From Haliotis rufescens (lineage: Eukaryota): a stretch of 64,000 nucleotides of DNA. A program made the position numbers. The number at the start of each line of letters is the position of its first letter. The first letter of the stretch is position 1. Below, piece after piece: positions 3,001 to 9,000 of the stretch. The DNA lies in the NCBI RefSeq assembly GCF_023055435.1, contig NW_025963902.1, positions 6,386,001-6,450,000 of the forward strand. Direction: 5' to 3'.

Positions 3001-6000
3001 AGGAGACACAGAATTCATACACTGTACAGCAACCATTGGACAGACAACTCTCACACTGGTATCGGCGTGTGGATGAGCCTCGAATATCACAGCAGGATCC
3101 TGGGCCTATATGTCTCCTCTCACAGACATACCCTGAACAAAAAAAATGTCAGCATCATCTCTCAGACATACCCTGAACAAAAAACATTTCAGCATCATCT
3201 CTCAGACATACCCTGAACAAAACACATGTCATCATCATCTCTCAGACATACCCTGAACAAAACACTTGTCAGCATCATCTCTCAGACATATCCTCAACAA
3301 AAGCATGTCATCATCATCTCTCAGACATATCCTCAAGCATAGTCACATTTTACGGCAAGCATGGGTTGCTGAAGACCTGTTCTACCCCGGATCTTCACGG
3401 GTCATACTGTTGATAAAAGTTAATTACTCAGAGTCTTGATTGATATCCAAACACATGAGGGTGATACTCTATTTTTCTTCCAAAATTATTGTTCTCACAT
3501 GTCAGCTGTCGATAGACCATATATATTTTTAAGGCATGACCCCCAACCAAACCAAATATCTACCCACTGGCATATACTGATTGAAAACATTGTAATGGTC
3601 AGATAGTTGACAGAAGACTGGCCCTTAATCTATACATGACATTAAGATGACAAAGGATCATATTAGACACAATGTTTGTTGTTAAATGACGCACTCAGCA
3701 ATATTCCAGCTATATGCATGACAGGATGGCAGCTAGTAAATAATCTAATCTGGACCAGACAATCCAGTGACCGATATTATCAGCAATGTAGGGTACGAAG
3801 ACACATTATCAAGCAAGTCAAAGAGCCTGACCACCCAAAGATTTTGCCGCCTCTTACTACCAGCATGGGTTTTTGGGGAGCAATTCAATCAAGAAATCCT
3901 CATGGATCAACTTCAAGTAACCTGCCTCATGTCATAAGAACCATTTGCATGGCAAAATATCTACCTTTAATGTTTATAGATTAAATCAGACATTTTCTCA
4001 ATAGTCTGTGACAAATCATGACTGAGCTTTATTCCATAATATATCTTACAGATAGTGAAAAAGGATGAAGTTACCTCGTTCATCTACTAAAAGGTGTTTC
4101 CCCTGGACAGAATTACGACAATGTATATGACGTGTGCGGTTATTAGTCTCAGGTTCATCTGGTATCTTGGCTTGCCACTGGAATGGTTGACGCTGGGTTT
4201 TCCTAACTTTGTACTCCTCCAACACTAGATCGTCAGACTGAAAAAGCATAACATTTTTTTTTATAGATTGGTGAATCATGGGCAGCTCAGAGATAACAGT
4301 TCATCTTAAACATAAACATTGTCATTGACAGAGTACACACAGGACCACAAAGTGAGTGAGATATATCCCTTTAATCGTTAATTAAAAAGCATGTTCGTGA
4401 TATCCATCAATTAAAACAATGATAAAATATACAGCAAATGGCTGAACCGACAAACCAGTTTGTTACATCCATCAGTTTGTTATAAGCATGTACATCATAA
4501 ATGTAATTTACTACCGTATTCAACGCAATAAGCACCCAGGGCGCTCTCAAAATTAGAAATAGGGGTCTCCTATTAGAATGTTATTTTGGTGGAAGAAAAC
4601 AGAATTGAAAGATAAATTTAATTTTGTGGTTTATGCTGACAGCCTGAACTGTTTATATCCGACAGATATAATTTAATTGCCCATACGTAAGGGTGCATAT
4701 AGCACACGAGTGCATATTATACGCGAATAAATAAGTCTTGTGTACATTGATCAATCGGAAGGGGTGCTAATTGGGATTGTTCACTGGCCAATATATTAGC
4801 AAATATCGCCGTGGGCGCTTATTAGAGCGAGGCGCTTATTACATTGAAAACGGTATATGTTATCAGCAAAAATAACTGAGACTTGCATTCATGTTTCACT
4901 AAAATGTTAACTTGCGTTCCCCAAAAGCATCCCTTTGACAAAAAGCTGCATTAACAATTACAAAGCCGGAGGCTTCTAAAATATTTCTGCTTACACGGCT
5001 CAGTTCATACTAATTCATATTTGATTATAAACACATCATGCACATTAGCACTGAAATATCTAAATAATAAAGCAAGACAAGTTCAAGTTGGTCAAGGTTG
5101 GCATCCATTGTTGAAGAAGTATAATATACATTTCTTCAAATTATCTCCCTTTTTTGGTTTGTGATAAGTAATTTACACAAAATACTTATGTTATTATTAA
5201 TTTTCTTTTACTGATACAATAAGTACAACTACAAGTGCCCGCCCACAGCAATGGATGCAAATGTTTTTTGCACAACTTGCCTAGGTTATTTAGGTAACAA
5301 GGTGCCTTGGATTGCAAAAAGAAAATGGGTTATGCCGTCATCTCAACAGTTTGAAGATAGGTTATGTCGGGTTAGATAGGATTACTGTGATGACTGAACA
5401 ATAGAGTACGATGCCAAGATGAGCGATAAGTAGTCAATAGGATTAATGAGGGAAGTCAATAGGGCTAATGAGAGCAAACAATATAGACTGTTGTAATATC
5501 ATTGTGTTTGTGTAGGACATCAAACCATTTTGAAATTTGTGGTTGTTTGCATTTTTTTTACCCCCTTGAGCAGTTAATTTGAGACTGATTCACGGATTAA
5601 TTAAGTTAACACACAGTAGAATTGCATTTCGGACTAAGCGTCAGATGAAATTGCTAATGAATTCCGAAAGATGTCCTTGCGCTGCACAGGATGTGCCGTC
5701 CAGTATCATGGAGGTAGATCAAGACACCCTGATTTCCATTTGCCTACCCGTTTGACTCATCGATTTATCGTCCAGTGGAGATTTTGTCACTCGCAAACTA
5801 TTCGGAATTTTGTCTAAATGGGTTCATTGGAGTACACATTTCCGCATGAATATTTGACGTTACCTTTGAAAATGTTGCAGCAAGAAAATATATCAACGAT
5901 CCGAGGAAAATGACACCTAACACCCAGCGTTTACGCAAAACACGGGTGCCAAACATTGGTATCGCAAGGTAAACATACAAGCCTGTATGTTAGTGTCAAT

Positions 6001-9000
6001 TGTTTCGCATTATTTTGCGCATTCTAGTCAAAATAAGTATGTGGTATTTTACTATAAAGTATTTTTAAACACAAAAGAAATACTTTTATATAAAAATAAT
6101 GCGGTGTATTCCTATATTTGATTCAATATGAGTAAGGAATTTGTTTAGCTTTACTTCTACACAAGTGACACATTTGTAAAAGCTATTTCCATTGGTTTTA
6201 ATTGGAGTTTGTGATCCAATCAGAATGGCTGTACCATGAGCGTCGGGATGGATAACAGGTGTCAGAAATTTCATCGGGAAGTTACAACATACTGAAACCA
6301 TACCACCGAGTATAACTGGTACAACCATTTTACCATTTTTGTTTACAAATAAATGTTTCGAGAGTTTAAGGTTGCAGTAGTTGCGGAAATTTGTTCATAC
6401 ATGTTGACAAAACATACTGCCAAACATCAGAATCAGCCAAACAGATACCGAAATAGGCCCAGTAGGTTCTAGGCTTGTGTTTACCATTAGGCTACTGGTT
6501 TTGGCTTATGGCTATTCTAAGCAATAAGGTCTAGTCAGCATGAGAGTTAGGTTATTAATCCTTTGTACAACTTGAATGTGTCTTTTTGAGTAGAATTTGC
6601 AAAGGACAATAACTGATTCTCATCAGAGACCATATAATAGATTATATGGTCTCTGTTCTCATGTATCCAAATTATTTGTGCATGAACGTTGGTAATTTTA
6701 GAGGTGTGAAACTAGATTCAGATTTGTTTGAGTTGTTTGTTTTGCCAAGTTTGGGTACAGGATGCAATATTATAGTTTGAATATGTCTGAGTGTATACAG
6801 AAACTTTCTATCACCAGGCCTAACTCTCAATTAAATATATAATCCAATGCTCAAACAATTTTCTACCTAATTTCAGATAACCAGTACCTTCATGAAATAT
6901 CTACAATGAATGAAGACAGGTCATTGCATAATGCAAACATGGCCGACAGTAGAAGAGATTCAGGTCAAAGCTTTTCTCTTCGTCTCGGAAATCTTCAAAT
7001 GCCAATTCAAATTCAGAATCGTCTGCCTCTTGGGAGAAACATGACAAGCATGGCTCAGGGCTTCCTGCCCAATTTCCAACAATCACCACGAACAACAGGT
7101 GCACCAGCGCTGTCAGCATCAGTGATCTCGGAGCCATCAGCTGTCATTGACATGTCGTCATTGGGTGCAATAAACTCCCAGGCAACTATTCATCCTCAAC
7201 AGCACATGATGTATGCAGACAGCCATGATCATGGTCATGGACACGGGCATGGACACGGGCATGGACATGGACACGGGCATGCCCACATGGCACCGATGCA
7301 AGATGAGAACCAAAACCATAATGTAATGGCAGACAATCCGAATCCATTGAATGAGCTTCAACCGAATGACTGGAGACCGTTTCTGCTCTGGTTCCAGAAG
7401 TGTGGAATTTTCTTTGTGCTTCTCTTCATGAAACTGATGTATGACCATAGATTAGGTGAGAAAGAGGTCCTAATAACCTAATGATAGGACGTGAAATTAG
7501 ATTATTACAGTCTCACAATCTTTCTACTGAGCGATTGAACATGTTAAAAGGAGATAATTTTTAAGACCTTTAAGTGGTTTATTATCAAAGTCCTACATCT
7601 GTATTGTTCTGCTTGTGAACTTGAATAATGACACTTAACCAGCGTAATCTTTTATAACAGAGAACAACATTTAACATGTTTAACATTCAATAGTTGAAAA
7701 TGTTTCAAGAATGTTATCACAAATGACTCTTTTTTTCAGGATTACTGGTTTTCTTTGCCTTGGGTGGAACATTTTATTATGCTAATCTGAAGCTTGTACA
7801 GTTCATACATCAGACTGCAGTGAGGGTAAGTAATGGTGTTGATTTCTCTATTAACCAATGAAATGATCTTCTTTCCAAAACTTTAATGCCTTACCATGAT
7901 CATTGACATTTTCGACTGCTTCCATGAAGTAGTGGATAGAGTGTCAGCCGGGAGAGCGGAAGATTGGTAGTTTGGTCCCTACTTGTCATATTCAGCATTA
8001 GGAGGGTAAAAACAAGCACTGGTCGGTATAAGTGCATGCAAGTCGCTATATAAGTGCAATCATCTTGAATGTGACAGAGAGCCCCATTTTACCACTCCTC
8101 GCCTTATGTTGACATTTACAGCCTTAGGTGTTACAAAATGTTTTAACATTCTGATGACTTCAAGATGGAAGTTGAAGACCCTACATTCATTTTATCATGA
8201 TTGAATATTTTAGAAATTAGTTGACAAAACTGTGATCAACAGAATTTGTCCACCAATCCTAATAACCACTGTCTCAATATGGCTCTTATAGAACATTTGT
8301 CTAGTTGCCAGGCATTATTCTAGGGTGGGGCATTGTGCTTTTAGCCTTGAAAAAAGGCCCACATTTTCAAAGACAATGGGGCATTTTAACATTGTGTTGT
8401 TTGGGCATGTGTGAGTGTACCTCTGGAATATTTTCACATAAACATGATAAAGGGCCCATGTCAGAAATAGAACATTTGTCTAGTTGCCATGGTCAGTTAT
8501 AAAGGGAATGTTTACGTTTTTGATTTTGAAGTATAAGAAACTCAATGTCAAACAATTGTCATGATTATTATACACAAAAGAGTTTGTTATTAGAAATAGG
8601 TGAAATGGGGTTTAATGTCACGTCCAAGTTTATTGCACTTATAAAGCGATGTGCATGCACGTGTGTGTATGGCTCCTTGTTCTAGTCTGGACTAATGCCA
8701 ATTTTATAGTTCCAGCCCACTGAGATACCGTGCTGCAGTTTAACATAAATACCCCACCCAGGCACAGTATACTGACTCTGAGCCGACCAGTGCTTGTTTT
8801 AGCCCCTTAAGGCTGACAGGGTAACAACAAGTACCATCTATTAACGTTTTTTGGTACGACGCGACCAGGGGATCGTACCCCAGACCTTTCGCTCTTCAGG
8901 CAGACACACTGCCATTAGCATGATTAGACTATGGAGGCGGTCTTATATGATATTAGAAATGACAACTGATAATTTATTACAATGTAGATATTACTCACCA

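What the first reader, a model, noticed from the sequence alone, without database searches (positions are those of the whole stretch)
5864..7455. SPRING1 and RNFT are head-to-head, apparently the same divergent pair as human C12orf49-RNFT2
Seen: the SPRING1 ATG (5956, -) and the RNFT coding start (6906, +) are 950 bp apart, with clustered CCAAT boxes between them. Recalled: human SPRING1/C12orf49 and RNFT2 are adjacent and divergently transcribed on 12q24. Inference: a bidirectional-promoter pair kept since the bilaterian ancestor. That would hint at an undescribed co-regulatory link between the Golgi SREBP/S1P cofactor SPRING and a membrane RING E3 ligase.
Basis: partly seen in the sequence, partly recalled or inferred. 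Interest (0 to 1): 0.72.

Follow-up and report, generated by a model that had tools for sequence, protein, structure and literature searches.

The report
Head-to-head SPRING1 and RNFT genes
Two real genes, a SPRING1 homologue and a membrane RING ligase that looks like RNFT, start back to back less than 1 kb apart, which is an ordinary example of an anciently kept divergent gene pair and no evidence that the two proteins work together.

Summary
A five-exon SPRING1 gene lies on the minus strand (ATG 5956, exon 1 5956-5864, stop 310-308). A seven-exon multi-pass membrane RING gene lies on the plus strand (ATG 6906, exon 1 6906-7455, stop 16924-16926). The 949-bp spacer is unique within the window and holds no other detected gene.

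SPRING1 identity is firm. Pfam PF10218 and the human SPRING1 chain 8uw8_B match exon by exon, in order. RNFT identity rests on architecture: at least 4 hydrophobic segments, a C-terminal C3HC4 RING and about 448 codons. It also rests on my recall of the human sequences. No tool here holds an RNFT reference.

"Clustered CCAAT boxes" is true only locally. Three pentamers lie within 30 bp (6191-6220), the only such cluster in the 64 kb (simulation P about 0.013). The spacer as a whole is not enriched (4 seen, about 2-3 expected). The cluster and a CpG-retaining stretch lie on the SPRING1 side; the 600 bp before the RNFT ATG are CpG-poor.

Papers place human, cattle and goat SPRING1 and RNFT2 in one locus. 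The human head-to-head orientation is only recalled. Descent from a bilaterian ancestor is plausible but could not be surveyed. The proposed SREBP-ligase link has no support. Hundreds of such ancient pairs are already described.

The parts
5864..5956 (-). SPRING1 coding exon 1 (31 codons; start codon 5956-5954; the single hydrophobic anchor)
   Evidence: A 17-residue hydrophobic stretch at residues 12-28 scores KD 2.25. No Pfam hit on its own.
4075..4237 (-). SPRING1 coding exon 2 (163 nt; holds an N-x-T sequon)
   Evidence: PF10218 profile positions 3-20, E 0.031, 14.8 bits, below the 22-bit cut-off. Human SPRING1 chain 8uw8_B residues 40-74, E 0.0094. Sequon at exon residue 33.
2981..3132 (-). 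SPRING1 coding exon 3 (cysteine-rich core, 10 Cys)
   Evidence: PF10218 positions 22-75, E 3.4e-13, 50.3 bits. 8uw8_B residues 77-126, E 4.5e-13, 27 of 50 identical by my count of the printed alignment.
1447..1560 (-). SPRING1 coding exon 4
   Evidence: PF10218 positions 79-114, E 7.8e-6, 26.5 bits. 8uw8_B residues 129-164, E 6.8e-8.
308..397 (-). SPRING1 coding exon 5, with stop TGA at 310-308
   Evidence: PF10218 positions 115-131, E 0.001, 19.6 bits. 8uw8_B residues 165-188, E 9e-9.
5957..6905 (.). 949-bp spacer between the two start codons; the presumed promoter region or regions
   Evidence: Unique within the window apart from its own palindrome (blastn). No Rfam family and no tRNA. No Pfam-annotated or long ORF.
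6191..6220 (.). Cluster of three CCAAT pentamers (ATTGG at 6191 and 6201, CCAAT at 6216), 235-264 bp from the SPRING1 ATG and 686-715 bp from the RNFT ATG
   Evidence: Centre-to-centre spacings are 10, 15 and 25 bp. Only the outer pair (25 bp) fits the spacing of double NF-Y sites reported in human: peaks at 24-27 and 36 bp, none closer than 19 bp (PMC4889920, passages).
6081..6098 (.). AT-rich palindrome holding TATATAA (6087-6093), which reads as a TATA-like motif on both strands; about 130 bp from the SPRING1 ATG
   Evidence: Function is inferred only.
5601..6200 (.). CpG-retaining stretch (observed/expected 1.06; window median 0.57; 94.6th percentile of 635 windows of 600 bp)
   Evidence: By contrast 6301-7000 scores 0.26-0.28, at about the 6th-7th percentile.
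6624..6655 (.). Perfect 15-nt inverted repeat with a 2-nt spacer
   Evidence: It is one of 9 close inverted repeats in the window. Meaning unknown.
6836..6848 (+). TATATAA (6836-6842) followed by a fourth CCAAT (6844-6848), 58-70 bp before the RNFT ATG; a possible RNFT-proximal core promoter
   Evidence: Inference only.
6859..6909 (+). Acceptor-like site (first exon base would be 6877) and a 5-codon upstream ORF (6892-6909) whose stop overlaps the RNFT ATG
   Evidence: It is the only acceptor-like site in 6600-6905. No strong donor-like site was found in 6220-6880, so a 5'-UTR intron is unproven.
6906..7455 (+). RNFT-like coding exon 1 (183 codons plus 1 nt): low-complexity N-terminus with a His-Gly run, then the first hydrophobic segment
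   Evidence: Only sub-threshold Pfam hits, to His-rich families. 16 His.
7740..7825 (+). RNFT-like coding exon 2
   Evidence: Intron ends GTGAGA...CAG.
9887..9996 (+). RNFT-like coding exon 3 (best of 16 candidates; hydrophobic segment)
   Evidence: Exon search with the required phases. GTAAGT donor. KD 2.15. An alternative acceptor at 9890 gives one codon less.
12144..12297 (+). RNFT-like coding exon 4 (one or two hydrophobic segments)
14532..14744 (+). RNFT-like coding exon 5 (hydrophobic segment)
   Evidence: Only a sub-threshold Pfam hit, DUF2127.
15495..15596 (+). RNFT-like coding exon 6 (first half of the RING: Cys1-Cys3)
   Evidence: zf-C3HC4 profile positions 1-18, E 0.0013; zf-RING_UBOX positions 1-16, E 6.6e-4.
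16795..16926 (+). RNFT-like coding exon 7 (second half of the RING, a short tail, stop TAA 16924-16926)
   Evidence: zf-RING_2 profile positions 23-44, E 2.9e-6, 27.9 bits; zf-C3HC4_3 positions 22-48, E 3e-6. The 22 PDB matches are other RING proteins, none named RNFT.

Best explanation
The locus is a true divergent pair: a SPRING1 gene and a multi-pass membrane RING E3 ligase gene of RNFT type. Their first coding exons face each other across 949 bp of unique, gene-free DNA. The most likely mechanism has three parts. First, the SPRING1-side half of the spacer is an unmethylated, housekeeping-type promoter. It comprises the CpG-retaining stretch 5600-6300, a TATA-like palindrome near 6090 and a CCAAT cluster at 6191-6220 that could take up to two NF-Y trimers on the outer boxes. 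Second, RNFT transcription starts either next to that cluster, which would make a tight bidirectional promoter, or at its own TATA/CCAAT element near 6836-6848. In either case the two starts would lie less than 1 kb apart. Third, the pair is the same one that lies together in mammals, kept from an early animal ancestor. Breaks between overlapping or interleaved promoters a few hundred bp apart are rare and harmful. This is the explanation already given for hundreds of conserved 5'-5' pairs. Shown: the gene models, SPRING1 family membership, the RING and membrane architecture, the spacer's length and uniqueness, the CCAAT cluster, and the CpG asymmetry. Inferred: the transcription starts, NF-Y use, any sharing of elements, RNFT orthology, and common descent with the vertebrate pair.
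For: SPRING1 identity: PF10218 matches exons 2-5 in profile order (3-20, 22-75, 79-114, 115-131). Exons 3 and 4 pass the 22-bit cut-off on their own. The only meaningful PDB match of each of the four exons is human SPRING1 chain 8uw8_B, colinear at residues 40-74, 77-126, 129-164 and 165-188. There is one N-terminal hydrophobic anchor, 14 Cys in exons 2-5 and one sequon. These fit the published description of a 205-aa protein with a single membrane span, a cysteine-rich motif and one N-glycan (PMC7048761, passages). Second gene: the two RING halves lie on the last two exons. Hydrophobic segments lie in exons 1, 3, 4 and 5. The exon lengths sum to about 448 codons. For comparison, RNFT1 is listed with 5 membrane spans and 435 aa (PMC4971459, table passage). 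All 10 introns are GT...AG with pyrimidine tracts. Spacer: unique in the window, with no RNA family. The CCAAT cluster is the only one of its kind in 64 kb, and its outer boxes are 25 bp apart, as in human double NF-Y sites. CpG observed/expected is 1.06 at 5601-6200 against a median of 0.57. Co-location in mammals. The class is well documented. 54.8% of conserved ancestral pairs are 5'-5' in human (PMC3514665, passages). [quoted passage not shown]
Against: No transcript data exist here, so no TSS is known. The spacer as a whole is not CCAAT-enriched (P=0.29). The middle CCAAT box is too close to its neighbours (10 and 15 bp) to be occupied together with either. CpG retention reaches only the 95th percentile and is not unique in the window. 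The 600 bp before the RNFT ATG are CpG-poor and carry several upstream ATGs (6762, 6783, 6847, 6892). No strong donor was found for a 5'-UTR intron. These points favour a separate RNFT-proximal promoter over a tightly shared one. No GC box, E-box, ETS, NRF1 or sterol-response-like motif was found. RNFT orthology has no tool-based test: both Atlas searches came back empty, and neither Pfam nor the PDB has an RNFT entry. The human orientation is recalled, not seen. Only two lineages (this organism and mammals) enter the argument for antiquity. The other genes in the window are a Rab escort/GDI-like gene, an ankyrin-repeat gene and a C2H2 zinc-finger gene. None is a gene named beside the mammalian pair in the passages seen (FBXW8, HRK, MED13L), so there is no wider synteny to lean on.
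Confidence: 0.7

Rival explanations
1. The two genes are neighbours with independent promoters and share nothing. SPRING1 is driven by the CCAAT/TATA region at 6080-6220. RNFT is driven by its own TATA/CCAAT element at 6836-6848. The linkage has persisted passively, because the target for breakage is small and the genome rearranges slowly, and not because of any regulatory constraint.
For: TATATAA at 6836 is followed by CCAAT at 6844, 58-70 bp before the RNFT ATG. There is a CpG-poor stretch at 6301-7000. Upstream ATGs would burden a long leader, and no strong donor exists for a leader intron. All the promoter-like signals except that element lie within 270 bp of SPRING1.
Against: TATA-like heptamers are cheap in DNA with 32-39% G+C, and I made no chance estimate for them. 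There is one good acceptor-like site at 6877. In published surveys, conserved 5'-5' pairs are over-represented and have short spacers, which argues for constraint in the class as a whole.
Confidence: 0.25
2. The pairing reflects a functional link. RNFT, a membrane E3 ligase, and SPRING, the Golgi cofactor of site-1 protease, are co-regulated because they act in one pathway. For example, RNFT might control turnover of a component of the SREBP machinery.
For: Only the arrangement itself and its apparent age. Both products are membrane proteins of the secretory pathway: SPRING is Golgi-resident, and RNFT1 is partly ER-localised with E3 activity. Livestock studies attach milk-fat and cholesterol traits to RNFT2 (PMC12686773, passage), but the neighbouring SPRING1 could explain that equally well.
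Against: Of the 4 papers holding both 'RNFT2' and 'SREBP', I opened 2; in those the two terms occur in separate contexts. No sterol-response-like element lies in the spacer. Reported RNFT2 roles are IL-3 receptor alpha turnover and mTORC1 signalling (PMC11913916, passages). Most conserved divergent pairs are explained by promoter constraint, with no shared function needed.
Confidence: 0.07
3. The resemblance to the mammalian locus is a coincidence or a misassignment. Either the two genes came together independently in this lineage, or the plus-strand gene is a different membrane RING ligase and not RNFT.
For: RNFT orthology could not be tested with any open tool. Humans have at least 37 RING-plus-membrane genes (PMC4971459, abstract).
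Against: By a rough estimate of mine, the chance that two named genes are immediate 5'-5' neighbours in a genome of some 20,000 genes is about 1 in 10,000 or less. The architecture matches RNFT in the number of hydrophobic segments, the RING at the very C-terminus and the overall length. From memory, the C-terminal RING and tail are close to the human RNFT sequences.
Confidence: 0.05

Closest known systems
Human SPRING1 (C12orf49) - RNFT2 locus on chromosome 12
   Same: The same two gene families lie side by side. Human, cattle and goat studies list them in one locus together with FBXW8, and with HRK and MED13L in goat. From memory, the human genes are divergent with a very short spacer.
   Different: Here the spacer is AT-rich (32-39% G+C in 400-bp windows of the spacer) with no GC box. 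The orientation and distance in human were not seen in any call. None of the other mammalian neighbours named in those passages is in this window. Vertebrates have two RNFT genes; this window shows one RNFT-like gene.
Conserved ancestral microsyntenic pairs in 5'-5' orientation, such as HSPE1-HSPD1 (Irimia et al. 2012, PMC3514665), and the 372 putatively ancestral chordate bidirectional promoters (Marletaz et al. 2018, PMC6292497)
   Same: Unrelated genes lie head to head with a spacer under 1 kb and are apparently kept across very distant animals. The accepted cause is shared or interleaved promoter sequence.
   Different: For HSPE1-HSPD1, co-expression (r = 0.81) and a shared promoter are documented. 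For this pair nothing of that kind is known. Neither RNFT nor C12orf49 occurs in the main text of PMC3514665 (0 occurrences). The pair lists are in supplements that I could not open.
NF-Y double-CCAAT promoter modules
   Same: Two CCAAT pentamers lie 25 bp apart centre to centre, within the 24-27 bp class found in NF-Y-bound human regions (PMC4889920, passages).
   Different: The two outer boxes are in opposite orientation. A third box sits between them at distances (10 and 15 bp) below the 19-bp minimum for double occupancy. No Sp1 site or E-box lies nearby. Binding is untested and the organism is not a vertebrate.

Membership tests
SPRING1 (Pfam PF10218, formerly UPF0454) | Match to the family profile over its whole length | tested here: met
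   Tested exon by exon. Profile positions 3-20, 22-75, 79-114 and 115-131 of 131 are matched in order. Exon 3 scores 50.3 bits and exon 4 scores 26.5 bits, both above the 22-bit cut-off. Exons 2 and 5 score 14.8 and 19.6 bits, below it on their own.
SPRING1 (Pfam PF10218, formerly UPF0454) | Colinear similarity to the experimentally studied human protein | tested here: met
   Chain 8uw8_B residues 40-74, 77-126, 129-164 and 165-188, with E values 0.0094, 4.5e-13, 6.8e-8 and 9e-9.
SPRING1 (Pfam PF10218, formerly UPF0454) | Short protein of about 205 aa with one N-terminal membrane span, a cysteine-rich luminal part and one N-glycosylation site (PMC7048761, passages) | tested here: met
   The exons sum to about 203 codons. 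There is one hydrophobic stretch, in exon 1; 14 Cys in exons 2-5; and one N-x-T sequon in exon 2, within one residue of the human N-x-S in the printed alignment. This is sequence-level evidence only.
SPRING1 (Pfam PF10218, formerly UPF0454) | Supports site-1 protease maturation and SREBP signalling | not testable with these tools
   Needs cell assays.
RNFT (RNFT1/RNFT2) membrane RING E3 ligases | RING finger of C3HC4 type at the C-terminus | tested here: met
   The two halves lie on exon 6 (zf-C3HC4 positions 1-18) and exon 7 (zf-RING_2 positions 23-44, 27.9 bits; zf-C3HC4 positions 19-40, 23.1 bits against a 21-bit cut-off). The RING was never scored as one piece, because exons were not joined.
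RNFT (RNFT1/RNFT2) membrane RING E3 ligases | Four or more membrane spans before the RING, and a length of about 435-445 aa | tested here: met
   Hydropathy peaks (17-residue KD >= 1.5) lie in exons 1, 3, 4 and 5. The exon sum is about 448 codons. RNFT1 is listed with 5 spans and 435 aa (PMC4971459). A simple hydropathy scale was used, not a dedicated predictor.
RNFT (RNFT1/RNFT2) membrane RING E3 ligases | Sequence orthology to RNFT1/RNFT2 rather than to another membrane RING family | not testable with these tools
   Pfam has no RNFT-specific model (no relevant hit for exons 1-5). No PDB chain is named RNFT among the 22 hits. The Atlas gave no usable hit for exon 5 or exon 1. The assignment rests on architecture and on my recollection of the human sequences.
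Divergently paired genes / bidirectional promoter (TSSs under 1,000 bp apart on opposite strands; PMC2670823 abstract) | Adjacent genes on opposite strands with 5' ends facing and nothing between them | tested here: met
Divergently paired genes / bidirectional promoter (TSSs under 1,000 bp apart on opposite strands; PMC2670823 abstract) | Transcription start sites less than 1,000 bp apart | tested here: inconclusive
   The start codons are 950 bp apart, which bounds the TSS distance only if neither gene has an upstream non-coding exon beyond the other's start. No transcript data are available. An acceptor-like site at 6877 leaves a leader intron possible.
Divergently paired genes / bidirectional promoter (TSSs under 1,000 bp apart on opposite strands; PMC2670823 abstract) | Shared regulatory elements or co-expression | not testable with these tools
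   Needs expression data and reporter assays.
Conserved ancestral microsyntenic pair (PMC3514665) | Orthologues adjacent in several distant animal lineages, with orientation kept | not testable with these tools
   Only co-location in three mammals was seen in print. No animal genome collection was available, and the supplementary pair lists are closed.

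The most novel reading that the evidence does not exclude
The SPRING1-RNFT head-to-head pair has been held together since before protostomes and deuterostomes split because the two genes must be expressed together. On this reading RNFT would be an unrecognised ubiquitin-ligase arm of the S1P/SREBP (or wider Golgi-ER membrane proteostasis) system that SPRING serves. Some traits now attributed to RNFT2 in livestock and human association studies would then reflect one shared regulatory unit.
Probability: 0.07. Interest if true: 0.6.

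Novelty: new member of a known kind. Interest (0 to 1): 0.3.

Why it matters
If the pair is truly ancient, it adds one more case to a class that already holds hundreds of conserved divergent gene pairs. It would also give a cheap, testable lead for RNFT2, a poorly understood ligase: check RNFT knockouts for S1P/SREBP phenotypes. A practical point follows now. Association signals for fat or cholesterol traits that are assigned to RNFT2 lie next to SPRING1, a known lipid regulator, so assigning such signals to one gene at this locus needs care. On its own the finding does not change how either gene is understood.

Tried and rejected
1. Protein Atlas look-alike searches with RNFT exon 5 and exon 1 gave no usable hit. 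This says nothing either way.

2. Pfam on RNFT exons 1-5 and on the first exon-3 candidate, the ORF at 11215-11412, gave only sub-threshold or irrelevant hits (ZrgA, SelP_N, DUF2127, TMEM43). I dropped the 11215 ORF as an exon because no acceptor fits the required phase. A phase-aware search then found 9887-9996.

3. PDB search with RNFT exon 7 returned generic RING domains only.

4. Motif scans of the spacer for GC box, E-box, a sterol-response-like element, CRE, ETS, NRF1 and DRE found none. All of these consensus patterns were recalled from memory.

5. A search for a leader intron found one acceptor-like site but no strong donor, so a non-coding first exon for RNFT is neither shown nor excluded.

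6. Literature searches for the pair:
- 'C12orf49'+'RNFT2': 4 papers.
- 'RNFT2'+'SPRING1': 4 papers.
- 'RNFT2'+'bidirectional promoter': 0 papers.
- Old aliases: 1 paper.
- 'C12orf49' with orientation words: none of the 15 papers listed held C12orf49.
Of the 7 different papers listed, I opened 5. PMC10384200 and PMC12519442 were not opened. Every passage seen is a locus or gene list.

7. Extended synteny: the rest of the window holds a GDI/Rab-escort-like gene, an ankyrin-repeat gene and a C2H2 zinc-finger gene. None is among the mammalian neighbours named in the passages seen.

8. I considered folding the proteins or predicting a SPRING-RNFT complex and did not run either. I do not claim binding, and only single exons could have been sent.

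9. The bacterial promoter/terminator scanner, the phage, plasmid and E. coli collections and the prokaryotic genome collection were not used, because they cannot bear on an animal locus.

Full report
SCOPE AND LIMITS. The window has no N. It reads as an animal genome with introns, about 41% G+C overall and CpG observed/expected 0.60. I did not try to name the organism. It is not human-like: the best-conserved SPRING1 exon is 27 of 50 identical to the human protein. I took no contig for human, and no loci were fetched. Both gene models are spliced. The step of joining exons into a full protein, and then searching or folding it, was left out. Domain scores are therefore per exon, and the RING domain was never scored as one piece. 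The remaining genome collection is prokaryotic.

THE OBSERVATION. On the minus strand an ATG at 5956-5954 follows an in-frame stop at 5992-5990. It opens 31 codons that end at 5864 before a GT. On the plus strand an ATG at 6906 follows an in-frame stop at 6840-6842. It opens 183 codons that end at 7455 before GTGAGA. The two start codons are 950 bp apart, with 949 bp between them. A second in-frame ATG at 6939 has a stronger context. If that one is used, the figure becomes 983 bp.

GENE 1: SPRING1. There are five coding exons on the minus strand: 5956-5864, 4237-4075, 3132-2981, 1560-1447 and 397-308. All four introns are GT...AG with pyrimidine tracts, and the exons sum to about 203 codons.
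- Pfam PF10218 (SPRING1) matches exons 2 to 5 in profile order: positions 3-20, 22-75, 79-114 and 115-131. The scores are 14.8, 50.3, 26.5 and 19.6 bits against a cut-off of 22.
- Against all PDB chains, each of these four exons finds human SPRING1 (8uw8_B, also 9csd) as its only meaningful match. The matches are colinear at residues 40-74, 77-126, 129-164 and 165-188.
- Exon 1 carries the single hydrophobic anchor. Exons 2-5 carry 14 cysteines. Exon 2 has one N-x-T sequon, within one residue of the human N-x-S in the printed alignment.
This fits the published description: 205 aa, one membrane span, a cysteine-rich motif, one N-glycan, and a C-terminus in the Golgi lumen (PMC7048761, passages). 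Family membership is secure. One-to-one orthology was not tested.

GENE 2: AN RNFT-TYPE LIGASE. There are seven coding exons on the plus strand: 6906-7455, 7740-7825, 9887-9996, 12144-12297, 14532-14744, 15495-15596 and 16795-16926. All six introns are GT...AG, and the exons sum to about 448 codons. Exon 3 was found by a phase-aware search, as the best of 16 candidates. It is the least certain exon.
- The last two exons carry the two halves of a C3HC4 RING: exon 6 matches zf-C3HC4 positions 1-18, and exon 7 matches zf-RING_2 positions 23-44 at E 2.9e-6.
- Hydrophobic segments lie in exons 1, 3, 4 and 5.
- Exon 1 is otherwise low-complexity, with a His-Gly run.
RNFT1 is listed with 5 membrane spans and 435 aa, and RNFT2 belongs to its family (PMC4971459, passages), so the architecture fits. 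No open tool holds an RNFT reference. Pfam has no specific model. None of the 22 PDB hits is an RNFT. The Atlas gave nothing for exons 5 and 1. From memory, the RING and the short C-terminal tail are close to human RNFT1 and RNFT2. That is a lead, not a test.

THE SPACER (5957-6905).
- Content. It is unique in the window apart from its own palindrome. It holds no Rfam family and no tRNA.
- CCAAT pentamers. Four occur, where 2.1-2.7 are expected (P=0.29). Three of them sit within 30 bp at 6191-6220. This is the only such cluster in 64 kb, and 1.3% of 5000 simulations reach it.
- Spacing. Centre-to-centre spacings are 10, 15 and 25 bp. In NF-Y-bound human regions, double boxes peak at 24-27 and 36 bp and are absent below 19 bp (PMC4889920, passages). 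At most the two outer boxes could be occupied together.
- Position. The cluster lies 235-264 bp from the SPRING1 ATG and 686-715 bp from the RNFT ATG.
- TATA-like motifs. A palindrome at 6081-6098 holds a TATA-like heptamer that reads on both strands. A second heptamer at 6836 is followed by the fourth CCAAT at 6844.
- CpG. Observed/expected is 1.06 at 5601-6200, the 94.6th percentile of 635 windows, but 0.26-0.28 at 6301-7000, about the 6th-7th percentile.
- Motifs not found. No GC box, E-box, ETS, NRF1 or sterol-response-like motif is present (the patterns were recalled from memory).
- Leader features. One good acceptor-like site would start an exon at 6877. No strong donor lies upstream of it. 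A 5-codon upstream ORF (6892-6909) overlaps the RNFT ATG.

READING OF THE SPACER. The promoter-like signals concentrate on the SPRING1 side. RNFT either starts near the CCAAT cluster, with a leader intron that uses a weak donor, or has its own proximal TATA/CCAAT element. By the usual definition (starts under 1 kb apart on opposite strands; PMC2670823 abstract) the pair very probably qualifies as divergently paired. Sharing of elements is not shown.

COMPARISON WITH WHAT IS KNOWN. Human, cattle and goat studies list SPRING1/C12orf49 and RNFT2 in one locus, with FBXW8 and, in goat, HRK and MED13L. None of the passages seen gives strands. If that recollection is right, independent origin is very unlikely: by my rough estimate the odds are about 1 in 10,000 or less for a named pair in a genome of about 20,000 genes. 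Common descent would then be the economical reading.

The class itself is well described:
- Conserved ancestral microsyntenic pairs are 54.8% 5'-5' in human, against 26.7% in controls, with short spacers (PMC3514665, passages).
- 66 human divergent pairs are kept in fly and 50 in worm (PMC12672016, passage). An earlier count gave 12 and 9 (PMC2670823, Table 2).

RNFT and C12orf49 do not occur in the main texts of PMC3514665 or PMC12672016. The pair may still sit in their supplementary lists, which I could not open. In the searchable library I saw the two genes together only in locus or gene lists, in the 5 of 7 listed papers that I opened (searches).

FUNCTIONAL LINK. Nothing supports it beyond adjacency. 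Reported RNFT roles are as an ER-stress-responsive ERAD candidate for RNFT1, and IL-3 receptor alpha turnover and mTORC1 signalling for RNFT2. Of the 4 papers holding both RNFT2 and SREBP, I opened 2, and in those the two terms are unrelated. Livestock links of RNFT2 to milk fat and cholesterol could equally come from the neighbouring SPRING1. That last point is my inference.

VERDICT. The pair is probably an ancient divergent pair of a well-known kind. The co-regulatory hypothesis is unsupported. Interest is modest.

Noticed in passing
window 3118-3333 (minus-strand gene, intron 2 / exon 3 boundary): A 40-bp unit is repeated 5.4 times (91% matches). It contains the exon-3 acceptor of SPRING1 and the first dozen exon bases. 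About three decoy acceptor copies therefore sit just upstream of the real one. Read in the exon's phase, each decoy runs into a TGA after three codons.
   Followed up: partly
window 24656-32156: A 7.5-kb satellite of a 25-bp unit, about 295 copies, 89% matches. It shows 50-53% G+C and a strong G-over-C skew (0.25-0.38).
   Followed up: no
window 34367-36253, minus strand: A 628-codon open frame matches Pfam GDI (E 2.1e-48) and RAE1_2_domI_C (E 5.3e-34). It is a Rab escort protein / GDI-like gene, mostly in one large exon.
   Followed up: partly
window 45634-47247, minus strand: A 537-codon open frame has ankyrin repeats (Ank E 1.5e-8) and is otherwise unassigned.
   Followed up: partly
window 60981-62201, plus strand: An array of at least 12 C2H2 zinc fingers, also seen as an 84-bp tandem periodicity at 61173-62283.
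   Followed up: partly
window 39203-39274 (+) and 12332-12403 (+): A tRNA-Glu(CTC) gene (56.9 bits), and a weak tRNA-like match (30.9 bits, E 0.018) inside RNFT intron 4. The weak match overlaps an element whose translated frames recur at several places in the window (for example near 774-917, 9647-9799, 13894-14023, 18664-18802 and 23723-23909). It is probably a tRNA-derived SINE family.
   Followed up: no
window 7228-7280, plus strand (RNFT exon 1): A run of His-Gly dipeptides lies in the N-terminal low-complexity region, and the exon has 16 His in all. This caused weak sub-threshold Pfam hits to zinc-uptake and selenoprotein P families.
   Followed up: no
window 6624-6655: A perfect 15-nt inverted repeat with a 2-nt spacer lies in the spacer, about 250 bp before the RNFT ATG. 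It is one of 9 close inverted repeats in the window, and no other copy of it exists in the window.
   Followed up: partly
window 41337-41456 and 41623-41809: A perfect 58-nt inverted repeat lies next to a 29/58-bp tandem array, within the most CpG-rich stretch of the window (observed/expected up to 1.35).
   Followed up: no
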